Virus record (IMG/VR): IMGVR_UViG_3300037088_000332
Reading direction: 5' to 3' (one strand)
Length of the DNA: 20,000 nt
DNA from: an uncultured virus (IMG/VR IMGVR_UViG_3300037088_000332)
Taxonomy: Duplodnaviria; Heunggongvirae; Uroviricota; Caudoviricetes
Each line of letters opens with the position of its first letter. Position 1 is the stretch's first letter. Shown one piece after another: positions 210-17,805 of this stretch. The translations under genes and the position numbers were made by a program. The notes beneath the pieces were generated by a model. The model saw nothing but the letters and a program-made list of their open reading frames with translations, searched no databases and was not told the DNA's origin.

Positions 210-1250
210 CTAGTTGGCGTCTTTCCATTCTTTCATGGATACCCGCTGCACCGCAGCGGGATTGACGGCAAAGCCAGATTCCTCGCTGATGGAGAACCCG
301 AAGAACGGCCCGGGGTAACAAACTTCATGCCCGACATTGTTGATGTGCAGGTCGTCGAAGAGCGATAACATATTAAGCCTCACCTTGTCAACGACATACC
401 CTGCATATATTCCGTCGTCGGTACCATCTACTACCTTTGTGGCCTCGGTCTTCCCAGTGACATACATATACCCCTCGGGAACTGACCGGCTTTGGTAAAT
501 GTCAGTGTTGCCTATCCCCCCCATCAATCCGGTTTTAAGGCTTTTTTCAACATAGTTACAGTCCAGCCGAACTTTGTCTTTCAGCTTGAGTATCTTAGTA
601 TAATCATAAGGATGGACAAAGACGAACAATACGGTCATTACACCTCTGTTTGATAACTTATCCCTTGTTTTGGTCAAAAAGTCGGGACCAAACGGAATGT
701 CGTTCTCATCCTTGGACACGGCGTCAATTAAAGAGAACATCTGGGCGTTTTCGGCCGCAACCATTTCTGCTTTACCGAGGTTAAGACCACGGGCGATAAG
801 GTCAAACCGGCGCTCCTCGATATACGTTATTGGGAACACGGGGTTAGACGTAATTTTGAATGTCGGAACAGCCATATCTTGGTCGCAGTAACACCACGCC
901 GTCTGCTTGCCAGTGGGGACGGTAGAAGGCAATAGGTTAAGTTTGTTGAGGCTGGACACATGGTTCCCATCCACCACACGGAACGCCTTGCGGACAAGGC
1001 TCATGTAATCCCGGCGACGGGAGATAACGGGTCCGAGGGTAACCGCAAGTTTCTGGCGACCAGTGGTGGTGCTTAACAGGCTGTAGAGAGATGTAATCTG
1101 TTCCATAGTTTCAACTTCAGCGACGTTCGTAACTACGGTTTGGGCAAAATCGGTGCCTTCGGGGACTGACGGAATGTCCGTCGTGAACTCGGCTCCCGTG
1201 ATTGTTGTCATTCCCCCTAGTCTGGCCTGAAATAAACTGCGGTGTTCCAT
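210..1250 (-). CDS. Diverged major capsid protein homologue (HK97/encapsulin-like fold), 346 aa
   Basis: The segments GRQKLAVTLGPVISRRRDYMSLVRKAFRV and PTFKITSNPVFPITYIEERRFDLIARGLNLGKAEMVAAENAQMFSLID resemble, from memory, a large-phage capsid family (GRxKLAxxMxxPLRxRRDY...FEIASNPEIPLTQIKERRFDLIER). The C-terminal IYQSRSVPEGYMYV and GFSISEESGFAVNPAAV are typical of HK97 folds. Confidence 0.65.
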   Translation of the reverse strand: MEHRSLFQARLGGMTTITGAEFTTDIPSVPEGTDFAQTVVTNVAEVETMEQITSLYSLLSTTTGRQKLAVTLGPVISRRRDYMSLVRKAFRVVDGNHVSSLNKLNLLPSTVPTGKQTAWCYCDQDMAVPTFKITSNPVFPITYIEERRFDLIARGLNLGKAEMVAAENAQMFSLIDAVSKDENDIPFGPDFLTKTRDKLSNRGVMTVLFVFVHPYDYTKILKLKDKVRLDCNYVEKSLKTGLMGGIGNTDIYQSRSVPEGYMYVTGKTEATKVVDGTDDGIYAGYVVDKVRLNMLSLFDDLHINNVGHEVCYPGPFFGFSISEESGFAVNPAAVQRVSMKEWKDAN

Positions 1251-1287: not shown

Positions 1288-1321
1288 AAAAACAGGAAGG
1301 GGGGAGCTTTCGCTCCCCCCT
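1288..1321 (-). terminator. Rho-independent terminator
   Basis: Minus strand AGGGGGGAGC-GAAA-GCTCCCCCCT (10-bp stem, GNRA tetraloop) followed by TCCTGTTTTT. Confidence 0.8.
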
Positions 1322-1540
1322 CTTAATCTACCTTAATATTTGATGCACTTTGATTAGATGGTTGAAATAGGATTTAGGTTCCCTACATCATACACCTCCT
1401 GGTTTGAAGTAGGAAACGGGGATTTAAGGTTGTTTGCTCCCCGTTTCCTATGGGGGTGCGTACCGTGATGAGCACGACTCGCTCCCCTCCACCACCGGTT
1501 TCCCTCGTGACCCGGAAACGTTCATTGGATGTACTGCCAC
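1288..1540 (-). ncRNA. Putative structured small RNA / minigene transcript (~250 nt), family unknown
   Basis: Bounded by the GTATTATA motif (1544-1551) and a terminator. Hairpins at 1498-1519, 1453-1487 and 1410-1450 (perfect 13-bp stem). AGGAGGTG-T-ATG-ATG-TAG at 1400-1383. No ORF of useful length. Confidence 0.6.
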
Positions 1541-1551: not shown

Positions 1552-1652
1552 ATTGGATATTGGAAAATTTAGGGAGGAATTTTTCTGGCCATTGAACTAC
1601 TTGCTTCCTATATGTGAGGGCTTAAGGGGCGTCCCCACTCCGAGGAGGTCAT

Positions 1653-3554
1653 ATGAACATAAGGGTTTCGCCTAAGACAGGAAGAAAGTACGGTTTCCAG
1701 CACTGGAAGGCAGAGGGGACCCACGGACCTTATCAGAACACCTATACTATGATGACGGTTGACCAGCCTCCACTAGAGGTCAGCCAACTACAGTGGATGC
1801 CGCCTGTTTACGACCAAGGACAGGAAGGCTCTTGCACCGCTTTCGGGGCAAAGAACGTCAGGGAATTCCTTAGCATCAAGTATGTAAAAAAGCCGGTTTC
1901 GCTCAGCGCCCAGTTTCAGTACTATTGCGAGCGCCTGCTTAACGGAAACGTAGGCCAAGATGCCGGGTCCACAGTATCGACAGCAATGCTGTCAATGCGG
2001 ATGTTCGGCATCTGCCCCGACGCTGATGAGTCGTACACAACCCCCTTTGTGACCAAGCCGTCTCAGAAGGATTTCGTGGATGCCGCCCGCTATAAGATTG
2101 GGAACATTTATACTATCAACACCTTGACGGACATGAAGAACGTCCTTAACGCCGGATGGGTCTTTGAACTTGGATTCCTCGTCTATGAATCTTTTGAGTC
2201 CGATTCCGTGGCCACAACTGGCATCATGACCATGCCATCTTCCAAGGAGCAACTTCTCGGAGGTCATGCGGTCTGCCTTACCGCAGATACCAAGATATCC
2301 TTGCTGGACGGAACGGAGAGATCCATCCTAGACCTATGCAAGGGGTTTGAGGATAGGTCGTTCTGGGTATATAGCTGTGACGAAAACGGGGGTGTGGTTC
2401 CAGGGCTGGCACATCATCCACGAAAGACTGGAGAAAAAAAGCCGATAGTGAAGGTTACCCTGGATAATGGGGAGACAATCCGCTGCACCCCGGATGAGTG
2501 GTTCATGCTGCGCGATGGGTCGTATCGGGAGGCATTCAACCTAGTAGCGGGAGACAGTCTGATGCCATTGTACCGCAAGATAGACGAGAAGCAGTTGCCT
2601 GGCTATGAGATGGTGTATAACCTTGCCACGAAGCGGTGGAGGCATACTCATCGTGCTTCTTACAGCGGAACTTACGGGAAATATGACAGAGGCGTTATAC
2701 ACCACGACGATTTCAATAAGCGCAACAATGTTCCCGATAACCTGATTCATATGACATGGGAACAGCATACTGCTTTGCACAGTCAAAACATTGCCTTATT
2801 AGAAGATTATGCAAAAAGTGATGAGGGCAGAGAGCATAGCCGTCAACTTATGACCAAACTCTGGGGTGACCCAGATTGGCGGGAAGAGTCTATGCTACGG
2901 ATTAAAGAGAACGGTAAGAAGGTATCCTATCAGTTGGCGCTAGAGGGACGTTGCGGATTTCAAGCTATGGATAAGGATGTGATAGCTGCAATCGGGCACA
3001 TAACTGGTCCAAAGAATATCCTAAAGACTCAAACCCCTGAGGCGCGGACAAAGCAAATAGCTACCCTAAAATTTCGCTATGCAACCGACTCCGAATTTTC
3101 CAAGGTTGTACTGGAAAAAGCATTGAGGGCATCACAGGTTGCGGCTCTTCTTGCCCCGACGCAGGCGCAGATAGAGGCTCGTCAAGAGAATGTGAAAGTC
3201 GCCAGGGCTACCAAGGCTAAAAAGTTCGCTATGGCTGCCGTAAACAACCATAAGGTTGTCTCTGTGGAGGATGCTGGATATGAGGATGTCTATGATTTAA
3301 CCGTAGATAGATACCACAACTTTGCTCTTACTTCTGGGATATTTGTCCACAATTGTGTCTGGGGGTACAACGACACCTTTATGTTCCCCGGTCTCCCGAA
3401 CGGTGCGCTGGCCATCCGCAATAGTTGGGGTACTTGGGGCAACAACGGTAACTTCTTCATGCCCTACGGTTATCTGAACGGAATTGACCCTAGTGGCAAT
3501 GGACCGTTTGTGAGCGATGCCCATTTGTGCCATTTGGGACCGGTTTGGTCGTGA
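1653..3554 (+). CDS. Papain-like C1 cysteine peptidase precursor containing an intein (633 aa; about 273 aa after splicing)
   Basis: DQGQEGSCTAF (oxyanion Gln55, catalytic Cys61), LSAQFQYY, GGHAV (His205), and IRNSWGTWGNNGNFFMPY (catalytic Asn). Strong RBS GAGGAGG. Confidence 0.93.
   Translation: MNIRVSPKTGRKYGFQHWKAEGTHGPYQNTYTMMTVDQPPLEVSQLQWMPPVYDQGQEGSCTAFGAKNVREFLSIKYVKKPVSLSAQFQYYCERLLNGNVGQDAGSTVSTAMLSMRMFGICPDADESYTTPFVTKPSQKDFVDAARYKIGNIYTINTLTDMKNVLNAGWVFELGFLVYESFESDSVATTGIMTMPSSKEQLLGGHAVCLTADTKISLLDGTERSILDLCKGFEDRSFWVYSCDENGGVVPGLAHHPRKTGEKKPIVKVTLDNGETIRCTPDEWFMLRDGSYREAFNLVAGDSLMPLYRKIDEKQLPGYEMVYNLATKRWRHTHRASYSGTYGKYDRGVIHHDDFNKRNNVPDNLIHMTWEQHTALHSQNIALLEDYAKSDEGREHSRQLMTKLWGDPDWREESMLRIKENGKKVSYQLALEGRCGFQAMDKDVIAAIGHITGPKNILKTQTPEARTKQIATLKFRYATDSEFSKVVLEKALRASQVAALLAPTQAQIEARQENVKVARATKAKKFAMAAVNNHKVVSVEDAGYEDVYDLTVDRYHNFALTSGIFVHNCVWGYNDTFMFPGLPNGALAIRNSWGTWGNNGNFFMPYGYLNGIDPSGNGPFVSDAHLCHLGPVWS
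2274..3353 (+). mobile_element. Intein (360 aa) with HNH homing endonuclease domain
   Basis: Block A CLTADTKISLLDG; block B IRCTPDEWF; HNH IHHDDFNKRNNVPDNLIHMTWEQHTALH; block F VYDLTVDRYHNF; block G IFVHN followed by +1 Cys. Removal restores GGHAV-CVWGY. Confidence 0.95.
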
Positions 3555-4110: not shown

Positions 4111-4400
4111 TAGTCCCTGTAAACTAATCGTATAAATCGGGCGTAAAGGATGTTGCCCACGAGGTTGACATGCTGCAACATGGTTCTGTCCGGGAATATG
4201 TTGGGAGGGAAGTCCATAGCTCGTCCCGCTGAGGTATTGTAGCAGAGGTCGCATAACCATTTGTAGTTTTCTTCGGTCGGTCTCTTTCTCCACTCCTCTT
4301 CGGTCATATGGAGACCTATACGGTCCCGCTCGCATTCCGTCAGTTTATCGGTGGTGAAGCCACAACTTTGGCATTCACCTGGATTACTGGTTTTCGACAT
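4110..4400 (-). CDS. Hypothetical zinc-binding protein, 96 aa
   Basis: CQSC and CDLC pairs; coupled to neighbours; GGAAAAG upstream. Confidence 0.7.
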   Translation of the reverse strand: MSKTSNPGECQSCGFTTDKLTECERDRIGLHMTEEEWRKRPTEENYKWLCDLCYNTSAGRAMDFPPNIFPDRTMLQHVNLVGNILYARFIRLVYRD

Positions 4401-5358
4401 ATCTTTTCCCTTCTGCCAGTTCCAGCATCCAGAATTGCTTGTGCATCCGCCAGAACGCCGCCCTGACCGCCGCTCCCTGCTCGTCAGATACCACGAGGAC
4501 TGAACTCATCCTGGGGATGATGATGCAGGTCTCGTGGACGATGTCGTGCTCGGAGAACACCTCAAAGGCGACCTTGCGGGAGAACAAAACTTGGTTGAGA
4601 ATCTCACCCCCGGATTTGGAGTGGAAGGGATAGGCAATCTCATCTGCAAGTAAGTCTTCAGGACGGGTGGAATCGTGCTTGACCATCATTGGAGCGCTTC
4701 CCGGCACCCAGTGGATGTACCAAGCCTTAAGGCTTGGCATTACCTTCAAGTAATTGTCCGAGCCTATACCAAGCATGGATATGTTATTGCTATCTGAAAA
4801 TACTGGGGTCTGCCCCCTTGGGCTTACCCGGAAGGATAGCTGCGGCGTGAAGCCTGCGATAATCTTGAGGGACTTGAGGGTACTGAGGTCATGGTTGAAC
4901 TTATCGTCTTCGGTCGTCAGGTGAGCAGCGTGGGATGCCCTGACCATCTTGGCACCTGGCTCAAGGGGGCTATGCTTGCTGTCCTTCCATTCCCCCTCCA
5001 GCTTCTTGATGTCGTCTTCGGCGTCCCTTGCTTGGTACCCCATGCCGACATAGGACTGGAGGTTGAGCAAGACCTGCGTGAAGATGTTGTAGTCCAGCAA
5101 CCTATGCCCGTGGAGCTTCTTAAGGACGACATTGCGGTCATAGCCTGTCGGCTCTCCCTTGACCTCGGGGCCCACTTCCATCCAGCAGTCACGAAAGACT
5201 TTCCAGATTACACTTCCCCAGTGGTCGGTTCGACTGAATTCCAAAGCAGGCAATATCTCCAAGAACTTTGCCTTGAGGGTATCTTCGGACTCAAATAATT
5301 CAGATATTCTCGCTGCAAAAAGGTTGGTTACCCGCTGGTAGATTTGTTCCATTTCCAT
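4384..5358 (-). CDS. Hypothetical protein, 324 aa
   Basis: Long ORF on the operon strand; no motif recognised. Confidence 0.8.
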   Translation of the reverse strand: MEMEQIYQRVTNLFAARISELFESEDTLKAKFLEILPALEFSRTDHWGSVIWKVFRDCWMEVGPEVKGEPTGYDRNVVLKKLHGHRLLDYNIFTQVLLNLQSYVGMGYQARDAEDDIKKLEGEWKDSKHSPLEPGAKMVRASHAAHLTTEDDKFNHDLSTLKSLKIIAGFTPQLSFRVSPRGQTPVFSDSNNISMLGIGSDNYLKVMPSLKAWYIHWVPGSAPMMVKHDSTRPEDLLADEIAYPFHSKSGGEILNQVLFSRKVAFEVFSEHDIVHETCIIIPRMSSVLVVSDEQGAAVRAAFWRMHKQFWMLELAEGKRYVENQ

Positions 5359-11150: not shown

Positions 11151-11408
11151 CTATATCTTGTCTCTTGATTGTTTCGCAGTCCAGACGGGCTGGTCGTCAG
11201 GCCATCCGACGAGGCGGAGGGCATAGGACCACACCCCAAGTCCGGCGAACCAGTGGCACTGGGTAAACTCTTTGACATCTTCAGGACAGACATCGTTGAT
11301 GCTCCTTCCGTCTACCTCTCCGGGGACTATAACACCTTCCCTGATGAGTTCTCTAAGCCACTCGCAGGCGAAGGAGTTTACCTCGTTATAGTATGCCCAT
11401 TTTCGCAT
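11151..11408 (-). pseudogene. Truncated DNA cytosine-C5 methyltransferase (N-terminal fragment only)
   Basis: AYYNE...WLRELI...PGEVDGRSINDV...QCHWFAGLGVWSYALRLVGWPDDQPVWT matches phage C5-MTases (motif I FAGxG). The sequence diverges exactly where GSCPCQPFS (catalytic PC) is expected and stops 8 codons later. Confidence 0.85.
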
Positions 11409-14749: not shown

Positions 14750-15027
14750 AACTTGTCCTTGTCCAAGAATCCGGGACATTCACACTTGTAGCTCAGACAC
14801 AGCACGGGTCTGGGGAGTTTTAAGATGTCCGGCATTCGGGTGGGTATATGCTGTACGAGGATATGCTCCTCTAAGTTATGGCCACACCCTATCCTGACAC
14901 ACCTCTTGTCCCTATGCCAGTTGTTATAAGTGACTAAACGCCCGTCAGGCTCTTGAAAAAGCTCCTCACGCTCCAGCGATACTTTGGCGGTCCACAGATT
15001 GACGAACAGAGTCCAAAAATTTTTCAC
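14746..15027 (-). CDS. Hypothetical Cys/His protein, 93 aa
   Basis: CVRIGCGHNLEEH...CLSYKCECPGF; GTGA overlap with the helicase stop. Confidence 0.7.
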   Translation of the reverse strand: MKNFWTLFVNLWTAKVSLEREELFQEPDGRLVTYNNWHRDKRCVRIGCGHNLEEHILVQHIPTRMPDILKLPRPVLCLSYKCECPGFLDKDKL

Positions 15028-17081
15028 TGCAATTGAAAATCACATTCCTCGGGCTCCTCTTCCATGGCTGGGTCTGGCTTTTTGTTCCTCAATTTACTAT
15101 TACTGGATTTCCTGTCTTTTTTCTCGAATATCATCGTGTAGTCATCGTCACCTACGGCCATATTGATGTAGTCGCCTTCGAGAAATTTTTTCATTGATGC
15201 CAAGCGGCGGTGGGCCGTGCGGAGCAGTTCGAGCTTGAACTGGTCATCCGAGTCACATTCCATCCCGCTGTCCAGGTTGAGGTCGTTGCCTCCACCCAGC
15301 AGCCCGGCACTGCTGGACTCTCCCAAGATGGCCTCTACCACGCCCTTCTTCCCGATGAGGACATCAATGGTGTATTCGTTCACCGTACCCTTCGCCACGA
15401 GGATGTGGAGGGTACAGGACGTGTGCGGAGAGGCTGACCGCACCATCCTGCCTACTAATTGAATCAGGTCGCCCCAAGACCAGGGAAGGTCTATACAAAC
15501 TAGGTGAGCAGCCTGTTGGAGATTCAAGCCTTCGATACCGGCCGCATTAATGAAAATCAGGTCATGGTCGGGAGACTCCTGAAACAATCGCTTGGCGACA
15601 TTCCTCTTTTTCTCCTTCTCCTTCCCGGTGATTCGTAGAGGTATGCGGGAGGTAAACTTACCGTTCTTGCTAAGCTCCTCTAGTCGGTCTATATGGCGGA
15701 GAAACTTGGAAAATACGATGACCTTCTCACCCTTCAGGTCACCGTCCAAAAGGTCAAGGAGCGCTTCCTCTTTGGGAGACAAGATAGGGGAGAAAAAGTT
15801 CTTCTTGTCCGCCCGGTCGATGAGTCCCCAGTGGTTGGCCACAAGCTCTTGCACCGACAGCATAGTCATAGCATTGCTGGGGTCCCTCTCCTTCTCATAA
15901 ATCTCCCCGGCGACCTTGATAAGGCTGGGGGGAAGGATGAAGGTGCCGTTGGGGATGTCTTCCAGCAGGAGTTTTCTCTGCTTGTCGTCGAGGTCCACCG
16001 GATGGTAGGTCGTCTGGAGTGTAGGCAAGGGTTCCTTGACCTGTGCCTGCGACCTCCCGAGGTAGAAGGGGCGTAATCCCTTCTTAAACTCCTCCATATT
16101 CTGGTAGCCGTCGAGGACCCGCTTATGCATCCCCCTTCCGACATACTGCTTGTGGAAGATGCAGAACTTTTCTCCGAATTCCCACATATTACCGAACGGA
16201 CGGACGCCGAGGGCGGAGATGGCAGCGTAGAATTCTGTTGCGTTGTTCTTCATCGCCGTGCCGGTAAGCCCCCACGCCCATCGAGCAGGCTTAGACAGAT
16301 ATATGACGAGGGCACGAGTTTGTGAACCTGATTGCTTAAATCTATGTGCTTCGTCAAAGATGATGACTGTCCTATCTCCGTGCTCCTTAATAATCTTGGC
16401 GAACTCCCGTATCTCCGACGATACTGGCTCTATCTTGGGCTTGCCGTTATCATCAAACTTTCCAGGTATCACCCTGCGCTTTCCAATCATGGAACTGTAC
16501 TTGCCGATGAGGACATCCTTCTTGTGACCAGAAAGGAAGTCTCTAAGTTGCTGATGGCGAGCAGCATACGACTTTATCCCCCGATATTTGTCTACCATGA
16601 CGAAGGGGCGCAGGAGGCTGAACCGACGAATCTCGTCAAACCATTGCCAAGTCGTTGACCTAGTAGTGACTACAAGAACCTTAAGGTCGGGGATGCGGTC
16701 TTTAAGCCAGCATACGGCGGCGATACAGTCGCTAGTCTTTCGGAGGCCAACTGCGTCCCCGACCATAAAACGGTTCATCCTGGCTAAGTGGTGGATTTGA
16801 ACTTTCTGATATTCCCGAAGAATTAAGGACTCCTCTTCTTGCTCAGTGCTCAAATTTAGTATTTTAGTTCTGAGCAGAGGAGGCCACTTGAATGGTATAG
16901 GGTTGTTAATATTCCCAACTTCATCAATTTGGCTGTCCCACTTCCTAAGCAGAAAGAGCTTGTAGAGTATATCATGGCTGATTCCCAACTCGTTAGTATA
17001 ATCAGTTATCAGTGGGCATGGCTGCTCTAACTGTTGCCCATCTACGGCTTTGTCCTTCGCTAATGCGTTTTCTATGCTCAT
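15024..17081 (-). CDS. SNF2/SF2 helicase-like ATPase, up to 685 aa (start uncertain)
   Basis: LREYQ (Q motif), GDAVGLRKT (atypical Walker A), IIFDEAH, WGLTGT, VIVFS, GIEGLNLQQA, DLPWS, QLVGRMVR. Confidence 0.92.
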   Translation of the reverse strand: MSIENALAKDKAVDGQQLEQPCPLITDYTNELGISHDILYKLFLLRKWDSQIDEVGNINNPIPFKWPPLLRTKILNLSTEQEEESLILREYQKVQIHHLARMNRFMVGDAVGLRKTSDCIAAVCWLKDRIPDLKVLVVTTRSTTWQWFDEIRRFSLLRPFVMVDKYRGIKSYAARHQQLRDFLSGHKKDVLIGKYSSMIGKRRVIPGKFDDNGKPKIEPVSSEIREFAKIIKEHGDRTVIIFDEAHRFKQSGSQTRALVIYLSKPARWAWGLTGTAMKNNATEFYAAISALGVRPFGNMWEFGEKFCIFHKQYVGRGMHKRVLDGYQNMEEFKKGLRPFYLGRSQAQVKEPLPTLQTTYHPVDLDDKQRKLLLEDIPNGTFILPPSLIKVAGEIYEKERDPSNAMTMLSVQELVANHWGLIDRADKKNFFSPILSPKEEALLDLLDGDLKGEKVIVFSKFLRHIDRLEELSKNGKFTSRIPLRITGKEKEKKRNVAKRLFQESPDHDLIFINAAGIEGLNLQQAAHLVCIDLPWSWGDLIQLVGRMVRSASPHTSCTLHILVAKGTVNEYTIDVLIGKKGVVEAILGESSSAGLLGGGNDLNLDSGMECDSDDQFKLELLRTAHRRLASMKKFLEGDYINMAVGDDDYTMIFEKKDRKSSNSKLRNKKPDPAMEEEPEECDFQLQ

Positions 17082-17805
17082 CTGTGAATCCTATGGTTTT
17101 TATTCTCAAAGATGCTGATACTGATTGTTTACGTTTAGTTTCCTCAGAAACTGGCTGCTGGCTAAAACGCCTTTGTTGCCCCTCCTTCATCCGCTCTAAA
17201 GTTTCAGGAGAGTATGTACGACCCATTGTTTTTTGCGATATCAATTTTCTAACAGAATCGGGTCTTTTAACCCCCCTTCGACTAATACTTAAAAGCCGTA
17301 ATCTCTGAATATGTTCAACAGATAGAGGATTTTCTTTGAATCGTTTATATTGAGAAACTGACATTTTATTACGGGATTCTAAAGAGTGCGGACCTTTAAA
17401 CACTGGGGGAATAGTCGGGAACTTCCCTCTACCCTGTTTCCACATTTCTTTTGAAGCACGACCAGTTTTTTTACGAGCTTCTTGGGAAAGTGGACCGGTG
17501 CGTCCCTCCCCCCCTCTACAGATGTTGTAGCCATATTCGGAGTCTTGAGCTTTGAGGAACTTGATAAAGTCTTGTTCAGTTTCGTCAAGTTCGGGTTTGG
17601 TCTGGATATCCGACCGAAGGGCATGGATGGACCAAGATGTGTGATTTGGATGCTTTCGCATTGAGTTGTAGAGATAAGAATGCTGAGAGGTATTTCTCTT
17701 AGCAGCCGATAGTTTGTCCTGAAGGTACTTTTTTAGGTTAGTCCCCTTATGTTGACCGACATAGTATTTTCCAGTTTCATGATTCACAATCAGATAGATA
17801 AACAT
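17002..17805 (-). CDS. GIY-YIG homing endonuclease with NUMOD3-like repeats, 267 aa
   Basis: FIYLIVNHETGKYYVGQH, LYNSMRKH, LDETE..FI, YGYNICRGGEG, then repeated (H/Y/V)SxETRxK(M/I)S units; AT-rich. Confidence 0.92.
   Translation of the reverse strand: MFIYLIVNHETGKYYVGQHKGTNLKKYLQDKLSAAKRNTSQHSYLYNSMRKHPNHTSWSIHALRSDIQTKPELDETEQDFIKFLKAQDSEYGYNICRGGEGRTGPLSQEARKKTGRASKEMWKQGRGKFPTIPPVFKGPHSLESRNKMSVSQYKRFKENPLSVEHIQRLRLLSISRRGVKRPDSVRKLISQKTMGRTYSPETLERMKEGQQRRFSQQPVSEETKRKQSVSASLRIKTIGFTDEHRKRISEGQSRRWATVRAAMPTDN

What the first reader, a model, noticed from the sequence alone, without database searches (positions are those of the whole stretch)
1653..3554. Intein inserted at the catalytic His motif of a phage papain-like protease: a splicing-gated protease
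Seen: a 360-aa HNH intein (2274-3353) splits GGHAV|CVWGY, three residues after catalytic His205. It separates Cys61/His205 from the catalytic Asn (RNSWG). Established: most inteins lie in nucleotide-binding, replication or recombination proteins (and phage terminases), so a C1 peptidase is an uncommon host. Inference: the precursor cannot form its triad until splicing, so the intein could act as a conditional zymogen switch, for example by redox at Cys1/Cys+1. This is also the only plus-strand gene here, and it is divergent from a capsid-like gene.
Basis: partly seen in the sequence, partly recalled or inferred. Interest (0 to 1): 0.8.

Follow-up and report, generated by a model that had tools for sequence, protein, structure and literature searches.

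The report
Register-shifting intein in phage protease
A large peat phage carries a papain-type protease gene split by a mobile self-splicing insert; the insert looks like an optional selfish element rather than a switch, but its relatives sit at any of five neighbouring codons after the active-site histidine, which suggests an intein lineage that shifts its landing site as it spreads.

Summary
Observation confirmed. A 360-aa HNH intein (2274-3353) splits a xylellain-like C1A peptidase of a large phage (contigs up to 201 kb) between His205 and Asn590. The switch reading is not supported. The seven closest orthologues, one in a syntenic phage, have no intein. The nearest intein sits in a host only 33% identical. 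Four HNH catalytic residues are intact in 91 of 91 relatives, and no redox-trap Cys is present.

(1) 96 non-redundant relatives occupy five consecutive positions, His+1 to His+5, in papain-fold hosts. They are each other's best hits (95 of 96), yet the site classes are not clades: 69-72% identical inteins sit in different registers in 16-19% identical hosts. Other hosts of the same family mostly keep one lineage per site. (2) This copy has Glu in place of the block-B His, so splicing may be slow, compensated or dead.

This scan had already found other inteins in papain peptidases on other DNA (catalytic-Cys and Asn sites). I found no paper on the His site or on the register drift. The mechanism is inferred.

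The parts
1643..1649 (+). Shine-Dalgarno-like AGGAGGT before the ATG
   Evidence: read directly from the sequence
1653..2273 (+). N-extein of the C1A peptidase, 207 aa: oxyanion Gln55 (1815-1817), catalytic Cys61 (1833-1835), catalytic His205 (2265-2267), -1 residue Val207
   Evidence: 62-73% identical to intein-free orthologues; xylellain 3OIS is the top structural and sequence match
2274..3353 (+). 360-aa class-1-type intein inserted at His+3 (Cys1 ... His-Asn)
   Evidence: empty allele; GC3 0.51 against 0.63/0.64 in the exteins
2487..2498 (+). Block B, T-P-D-E: Glu282 (GAG) replaces the normally essential His
   Evidence: His in 92 of 96 His-site inteins and 436 of 439 inteins in other hosts; codon covered with no other letters by a contig of run X12
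2643..2780 (+). HNH nuclease core (H350, H351, N359, N363, H372, H376), weakly I-HmuI-like
   Evidence: Pfam HNH_3; residues conserved in 90-91 of 91 relatives; 1U3E is the top but weak hit: Foldseek E 0.17, VIA Z 4.9, rmsd 3.3 over 70 residues
2790..3236 (+). Long basic helical arm, presumed DNA-binding region (inferred)
   Evidence: helical in both models; no specific fold match
3285..3353 (+). Blocks F and G (Asp548, His555, His566, Asn567), all canonical
3354..3554 (+). C-extein, 66 aa: +1 Cys568, native at His+3; catalytic Asn590 in RNSWG (3420-3422)
   Evidence: 78-87% identical to the seven closest empty orthologues, all with Cys at His+3
210..1250 (-). Divergent HK97-fold capsid-like gene (context only; link to the peptidase not conserved)
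   Evidence: no match in the 12.6-kb L001 locus
4384..5358 (-). Unknown 324-aa gene, syntenic downstream neighbour of the empty allele
   Evidence: 58.6% identical to L001:6840-7787; four more window genes match in the same order

Best explanation
A selfish, horizontally acquired HNH homing intein sits in the most conserved strand of a phage xylellain-type cysteine peptidase. SHOWN: the insert is optional, foreign and nuclease-intact. It belongs to a lineage that specialises on the Gly-Gly-His motif of papain-fold genes and occupies five consecutive codons (His+1 to His+5), changing register repeatedly as it moves between hosts. INFERRED: the precursor is inactive until splicing restores His-x5-Gly. 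An I-HmuI-like nuclease recognises the GGH codons and nicks nearby. Repair from a divergent donor gene usually co-converts the donor's register, but sometimes it resolves illegitimately. One route is pairing the recipient's single Cys codon with the TGY codons at both ends of the donor insert (Cys1 and Cys+1). That drops the intein in frame in front of whichever Cys that allele has and keeps the strand length. Selection removes products without a +1 nucleophile. In this phage the landing Cys was native at His+3. The block-B His-to-Glu change is probably tolerated (bulky Val at -1), giving slower rather than no splicing.
For: Optional: the seven closest orthologues are empty, and no intein-bearing protein other than the window's own cluster exceeds 43% identity over most of the length. 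Horizontal: the sister intein P0004 (99/96 support) sits at His+4 in a 33% identical host. Nuclease: H350, H351, N359 and H372 are present in 91 of 91 full-length relatives; an HNH hit is found in 94 of 96. Sites: 33/6/27/24/6 at His+1 to +5 among 553 non-redundant inteins. For 95 of 96, the best hit is another His-site intein, and none is among the 439 in other hosts. Site classes are not clades: at least 25 changes on 91 rows against a minimum of 4, while the catalytic-Cys and post-NSWG inteins each form one clade. The AU test rejects monophyly in a hand-picked 28 and in a random 30 (p 0.004, 0.012, 0.043). Pairs of 69-72% intein identity and 16-19% extein identity differ in register, with Hint and HNH parts equally similar. 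Control: in other hosts 6 of 453 pairs 1-5 aa apart reach 65% Hint identity, against 320 of 3375 here. Precedent for illegitimate, microhomology-based repair by phage homing elements: PMC2988022 passage. Precedent for bulky -1 residues rescuing loss of the block-B His: PMC6333167 passages.
Against: No splicing, cleavage or homing was measured. DNA microhomology beyond the Cys codon is no greater than in other +1-Cys inteins (mean common prefix 2.8 nt, n=15, against 2.74, n=82). A native Cys at the landing site is shown only for this lineage: the best empty relative shares the Cys position in 3 of 20 testable cases, 2.1 expected by chance. Site counts track Cys availability in 118 empty alleles (11/0/21/12/1) only weakly (rho 0.67, p 0.22). 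The His-site group is not strictly monophyletic: 90 of 91 lie in a 102-row group (SH 94) that also holds 12 inteins from other sites or hosts. The I-HmuI match is weak. Sampling started from this intein. The pairs are not independent.
Confidence: 0.7

Rival explanations
1. Domesticated conditional zymogen switch: splicing is gated by redox or another cue, so the protease is released only at the right time.
For: The insert separates Cys61/His205 from Asn590. Cys1 and Cys+1 are present. The block-B His is replaced by Glu, which could slow step 1. Conditional splicing has precedents such as MoaA (PMC10663303 passages). Some relatives lie beside endolysin genes (L030, L104, L110), where timing could matter.
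Against: 7 of 7 closest orthologues lack the intein. The nuclease is retained in 94 of 96. The register varies across five positions. An N-extein trap Cys is present in only 2 of 96, and Ser+1 occurs in 3 of 96. Gene context is not conserved.
Confidence: 0.1
2. Crippled intein: loss of the block-B His blocks splicing, so this allele is a knocked-out or barely active peptidase carried along by a working nuclease.
For: [quoted passage not shown] The window's exteins carry 7 private changes at 138 otherwise invariant columns.
Against: The ORF, triad and all other splicing residues are intact on 6 contigs. The extein branch (0.17) lies within the range of unpaired empty orthologues (0.11-0.28), and one of them has 8 of 139 private changes. 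Glu needs two base changes yet is the commonest replacement (4 of 7 non-His cases among 553). It appears on separate branches, each time with a bulky -1 residue (V, T, L, V).
Confidence: 0.15
3. No landing-site flexibility: registers arise by rare in-place sliding of a resident intein, or the intein carries its own +1 Cys in a conversion tract, and the mixing on the tree is partly error.
For: Cys is rare at His+2 (0 of 118) and His+5 (1 of 118) in empty alleles, yet 12 inteins sit there. Best empty hits mostly lack the Cys. Carrying of the +1 residue has been proposed (PMC11855218 passage). Many deep forks are unresolved.
Against: Shifted pairs span hosts only 16-19% identical. One shift is four codons (His+1 against His+5, 69% identical inteins) into CVVAV, a motif native in 8 of 118 empty alleles. 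His-to-Gly spacing is kept (Gly at +6 in 86 of 96), which in-place sliding would have to break in passing.
Confidence: 0.15

Closest known systems
[quoted passage not shown]
   Same: Cys1, Asp F4, His-Asn end, +1 Cys, nested HNH; NF052663 matches the intein at 2e-44
   Different: Host is a papain-fold peptidase (no 'peptidase' or 'protease' in the survey's main text); block-B His is replaced by Glu; the lineage spans five adjacent sites
Xylellain (PDB 3OIS), bacterial C1A peptidase
   Same: Best sequence match (2e-25 for the empty allele) and best structure match (1e-10); Gln/Cys/His/Asn set present
   Different: Phage-encoded and intein-split; substrate unknown
Closely spaced intein sites: TerL1-a/b (1 aa apart, PMC5050341 section 9) and DnaB a/c (2 aa apart, PMC4760082 passage)
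   Same: Neighbouring insertion points in one catalytic motif
   Different: Those are read as independent invasions; here one lineage occupies five consecutive positions and close relatives differ in register
Non-allelic homing and extein switching (Anaeramoeba, PMC10710043 section 9; terminase to Cas4, 10.1101/2025.01.02.630785 passages)
   Same: Intein movement between hosts of very low identity through a shared short motif
   Different: Reported as jumps to an equivalent site or another protein, not as recurrent codon-scale register shifts at one motif
I-HmuI, nicking HNH homing endonuclease of Bacillus phage introns (PDB 1U3E)
   Same: Top but weak fold hit for the nuclease core; nuclease joined to an extended arm
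   Different: Intein-encoded; the helical arm has no match to the I-HmuI DNA-binding modules; nicking untested
Protease-hosted inteins ClpP and Lon (PMC5784728, PMC4760082 and PMC10710043 passages)
   Same: Intein in a protease gene
   Different: Serine proteases of other folds; LonB is listed as a P-loop host
Inteins lacking the block-B His: Tko CDC21-1 and Arthrobacter FB24 DnaB (PMC4031507 passage)
   Same: His B10 absent; bulky -1 residue as in CDC21-1 (PMC6333167 passage)
   Different: Glu replacement, recurring on separate branches; no shared compensating residue found in the Hint columns

Membership tests
Class-1 intein | In-frame insertion absent from homologues | tested here: met
   Empty allele GGHAVCVWGY
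Class-1 intein | Cys/Ser1, terminal His-Asn, +1 Cys/Ser/Thr, block F Asp and His | tested here: met
   C208, D548, H555, H566-N567, C568
Class-1 intein | Block B Thr-x-x-His | tested here: not met
   T279-P-D-E282; the copy is non-canonical, and known inteins without this His exist
Class-1 intein | Hint fold | tested here: met
   Foldseek hits to DnaB, DnaE and RecA inteins, E 7e-07 to 2e-05
Class-1 intein | Protein splicing activity | not testable with these tools
   needs expression
HNH homing endonuclease | Intact His/Asn/His catalytic set | tested here: met
HNH homing endonuclease | I-HmuI-type architecture | tested here: inconclusive
   1U3E ranks first but weakly (E 0.17; Z 4.9, rmsd 3.3, 70 aligned); the arm is unmatched
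HNH homing endonuclease | Cleaves the empty allele and drives homing | not testable with these tools
   only indirect: patchy, horizontal distribution
Peptidase family C1A (xylellain-like) | Gln, Cys, His, Asn (NSW) in papain order and fold | tested here: met
Peptidase family C1A (xylellain-like) | Proteolytic activity | not testable with these tools
   needs assay
Redox-trapped conditional inteins (MoaA type) | Cys in the proximal N-extein able to pair with Cys1 | tested here: not met
   window has G-H-A-V at -4 to -1; 2 of 96 relatives have such a Cys
Redox-trapped conditional inteins (MoaA type) | Splicing responds to oxidant | not testable with these tools
   needs assay
Allelic intein family (one lineage, one site) | Inteins at one site form a clade and closest relatives share the site | tested here: not met
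   met by the catalytic-Cys and post-NSWG groups and mostly by other hosts

The most novel reading that the evidence does not exclude
A homing intein lineage whose target is a motif rather than a codon. Its HNH nuclease reads the Gly-Gly-His codons of papain-fold genes across hosts under 20% identical, and the element installs itself in frame before whichever Cys lies 1-5 codons downstream. This would be a recurrent, testable route by which new intein sites are born. Several branches also splice with Glu in place of the block-B His, possibly helped by the host's bulky -1 residue or its own catalytic His at -3/-4.
Probability: 0.5. Interest if true: 0.82.

Novelty: new variant of a known kind. 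Interest (0 to 1): 0.63.

Why it matters
How inteins reach new sites is a long-standing question, usually argued from single jumps. Here one lineage offers many codon-scale shifts at one motif, with natural donors, recipients and an empty allele in hand, so site creation can be tested directly. It also adds papain-fold peptidases of uncultured phages as a heavily invaded host: five His registers, the catalytic Cys, post-NSWG sites, and six doubly invaded proteins. Natural His-to-Glu block-B variants bear on splicing chemistry and intein engineering. As a single locus it is most likely a selfish insert, not a regulatory device.

Tried and rejected
No whole genome was available. Scanning viral contigs with the intein alone found nothing. 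A back-translated His+3 junction pattern gave 25 loci, of which 1 was a C1 gene. Among cultured or deposited phages, 3 records hold a C1 homologue and 10 a related intein; none of the annotated intein hits lies in a peptidase, and the two lists share no record. In GTDB genomes, 1 of the 80 best loci (of 381 confirmed) held C1 plus intein, on a 7-kb contig. Extended DNA microhomology between the intein start and the downstream extein: no signal. Native Cys in the best empty relatives of other hosts: no excess. A shared compensating residue among the four Glu variants: none found. dN/dS against L001: dS saturated. Four low-coverage runs were laid to look for an empty allele in the same population; no joint skipped the intein, which is uninformative. 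No RNA holder was listed. The promoter and terminator scan was at chance level. The structure models gave no coordinates, so triad geometry in the precursor was not measured. The helical arm has no specific fold match. No complex prediction was run, since no binding claim is made. Literature: ten full-text searches showed no paper on C1-peptidase inteins or register drift, judged from listings and the passages read. Subscription papers, InBase itself, bioRxiv supplements and file 1 of the PMC4760082 supplement were not seen.

Full report
OBSERVATION. The ORF 1653-3554 encodes 633 aa with Gln55, Cys61, His205 and Asn590. Pfam and NCBIfam give Intein_splicing, both TIGR intein ends, Peptidase_C1 and a sub-threshold HNH_3. 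The model matches xylellain and Hint structures. An intein-free allele (P0199, GGHAVCVWGY) lies in two IMG/VR contigs of 237 and 317 kb, with five more window genes matching in the same order. This fixes the boundaries. The same 633-aa protein is on 6 contigs, up to 201,562 bp. 14 of the 16 listed runs are peat metagenomes, 7 of them possibly the source. The divergent neighbour is capsid-like, but that link is absent in L001, where tRNA genes lie upstream.

OPTIONAL AND FOREIGN. The seven closest orthologues (62-73% N-extein, 78-87% C-extein identity) are all empty, and all have Cys at His+3. That search could not return long proteins, but the 348-1108-aa search found no intein-bearing protein above 43% over most of the length outside the window's own cluster. 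Third-position GC is 0.51 in the intein and 0.63-0.64 in the exteins. The sister intein (P0004, support 99/96) sits at His+4 in a 33% identical peptidase.

THE FAMILY. From proteins and loci I extracted 633 inteins, 553 after collapsing at 90%. In papain-fold hosts they sit at His+1 (33), +2 (6), +3 (27), +4 (24) and +5 (6). Ten more sit in front of the catalytic Cys, 5 after NSWG and 3 at a Cys-like site; 439 are in other hosts. Two His+1 cases were labelled by hand. My classifier used the His-x5-Gly spacing, but no C1-hosted intein except those two was left unclassified, and Gly is at +6 in 86 of 96. Six peptidases carry two inteins. Neighbours of eleven loci are phage-type or unassigned and vary: endolysins in L030, L104 and L110, baseplate genes in L062 (59 selected ORFs, not all). 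Only 1 of the 80 best GTDB loci held the combination.

REGISTER DRIFT. For 95 of 96 His-site inteins the best hit is another His-site intein, often in another register; none is among the 439 in other hosts. A FastTree was built from 131 rows: 91 His-site inteins of at least 300 aa, the 25 most similar from other hosts, and 15 from other C1 sites. On it, the catalytic-Cys and post-NSWG groups are single clades, while the His registers need at least 25 changes against a minimum of 4. Of the 91, 90 fall in a 102-row group that also holds 12 others. AU tests reject monophyly of His+1, +3, +4 and +5 in 28 rows that I chose after seeing that tree. They also reject His+3, +4 and +1 in a random 30 (p 0.004, 0.012, 0.043; bootstrap not settled). 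P0005 (+5), P0007 (+3) and P0023/P0026 (+4) share 69-72% intein identity at 16-19% extein identity. P0013 (+1) and P0151 (+5) share 69%. Hint and HNH parts are equally similar in these pairs. Control: in other hosts, same-site pairs have median Hint identity 0.61, and pairs 1-5 aa apart are at background (6 of 453 reach 0.65). At the His motif, offsets 1-4 have the same median as offset 0 (0.56-0.61 against 0.58; 320 of 3375 and 170 of 1185 reach 0.65) (pairs are not independent). One intein clade occupies only hosts with Asp at His+1 (6 of 6; 0 of 118 in empty alleles), across hosts mostly 16-41% identical. That fits either recognition of those codons or co-conversion.

MECHANISM (inferred). 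HNH residues H350, H351, N359 and H372 are present in 91 of 91 full-length relatives, and 94 of 96 keep the domain. This is the signature of ongoing homing. The core's best structural match is I-HmuI, weakly. Phage HNH enzymes nick their targets, and one-sided homing gives illegitimate junctions at microhomologies (PMC2988022 passages). They are also less specific (PMC3943268 passages). I propose recognition of the GGH codons, ordinary co-conversion most of the time, and occasional resolution at the recipient's own Cys codon, which matches the TGY at both ends of the insert. Against this detail: there is no extra microhomology; best empty relatives share the Cys position in only 3 of 20 cases (2.1 expected; most are only 45-62% identical); and site counts follow Cys frequency in empty alleles only weakly. 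An intein that carries its own Cys (mentioned in PMC11855218) remains open for His+2 and His+5.

BLOCK B. This copy has Glu282 where 92 of 96 His-site inteins and 436 of 439 others have His. A contig of run X12 carries the same codon. [quoted passage not shown] Bulky -1 residues can rescue its loss (PMC6333167 passages). Glu is 4 of the 7 replacements, lies on separate branches, and always follows V, T or L. The exteins show no gross decay: branch 0.17 against 0.11-0.28 for unpaired orthologues, and 7 private changes in 138 conserved columns against 0-8 in the others. Slower splicing is my best guess; a dead allele is possible.

THE SWITCH IDEA. An inactive precursor is plausible: the His strand is cut, and the model is unsure there. 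But insertion in conserved motifs is what parasitic inteins do (PMC2814812 abstract). The MoaA-type trap needs an N-extein Cys (PMC10663303 passages), found in 2 of 96 and not here. Optional presence, retained nuclease, shifting register and variable context all favour a selfish element.

WHAT IS KNOWN. Protease hosts ClpP and Lon are known (PMC5784728 passages; PMC4760082 passages and 2 of 3 supplement files, with no 'papain' or 'COG4870'). Sites 1-2 aa apart are known in TerL and DnaB and are treated as independent (PMC5050341 section 9 and passages). Non-allelic homing and extein switching are described (PMC10710043 passages and section 9; 10.1101/2025.01.02.630785 passages, supplements not seen). 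Passages of PMC7765530 and PMC7824862 added nothing on C1 hosts. Ten searches showed no report of this host or of register drift; subscription journals and InBase were not covered. Earlier unchecked notes of this scan describe LAGLIDADG inteins at the catalytic Cys, a Gln-ended intein after the Asn, and a related HNH intein in GyrA. None named the His site.

VERDICT. Real, and a new variant of a known kind: a selfish HNH intein in a phage C1A peptidase, part of a lineage that shifts register across five codons. Interest 0.63; the zymogen-switch reading about 0.1.

Noticed in passing
L001 and L002:936-3377 (+): Large-phage gene for a major vault protein homologue (MVP_shoulder 1e-21, Vault_3 1.5e-10) beside a cluster of 11 Ser/Leu/Tyr tRNA calls.
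   Followed up: no
P0003, P0016, P0122, P0123, P0124, P0128: C1 peptidases with two inteins at once: the His site plus the catalytic Cys or a post-NSWG site. P0124 pairs a LAGLIDADG-type with an HNH-type intein.
   Followed up: partly
P0043, P0044, P0046, P0049, P0059, P0064, P0281, P0298, P0003, L124: A separate clade of HNH inteins uses the peptidase's catalytic Cys as +1 nucleophile; all 10 have Cys rather than Asp at block F4.
   Followed up: partly
P0200-P0303: The wider HNH-intein family invades portal, terminase-like, baseplate, caspase-like (PF00656), thymidylate synthase and gyrase genes; many proteins of 1,200-3,000 aa hold several copies.
   Followed up: partly
P0023, P0025, P0026, P0029, P0130, P0137, P0156 and relatives: A divergent papain-like phage family with GGH ... 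[TS]WG in place of NSWG; the six members scanned have no Peptidase_C1 hit. It hosts about a quarter of the His-site inteins.
   Followed up: no
P0146, P0177, L055: Further inteins with Glu in place of the block-B His, on separate branches.
   Followed up: partly
window 17002-17805 (-): Free-standing GIY-YIG/NUMOD3 homing endonuclease overlapping the called start of an SNF2-type helicase at 15024-17081.
   Followed up: no
window 210-1250 (-): HK97-fold capsid-like gene with no other recognised virion gene among the ORFs scanned in the window; possibly an orphan or second capsid-fold gene.
   Followed up: partly
window 1297-1322: An 11-pair GC-rich hairpin in the intergenic gap between the capsid-like gene and the peptidase; the scan's overall count is at chance level.
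   Followed up: no
window 11151-11408 (-): 85-aa fragment matching only the N-terminus of a DNA methyltransferase family (phrog_363, 4e-22); looks truncated.
   Followed up: no
L089/P0200, P0051/P0229, P0241/P0292: A few close intein pairs 1-5 aa apart in non-C1 hosts (Hint identity 0.68-0.73) hint that register shifts also occur rarely elsewhere in the family.
   Followed up: no
L030, L104, L110: Intein-bearing papain-fold genes lie next to endolysin genes; in L062 the gene lies inside a baseplate/tail module.
   Followed up: no
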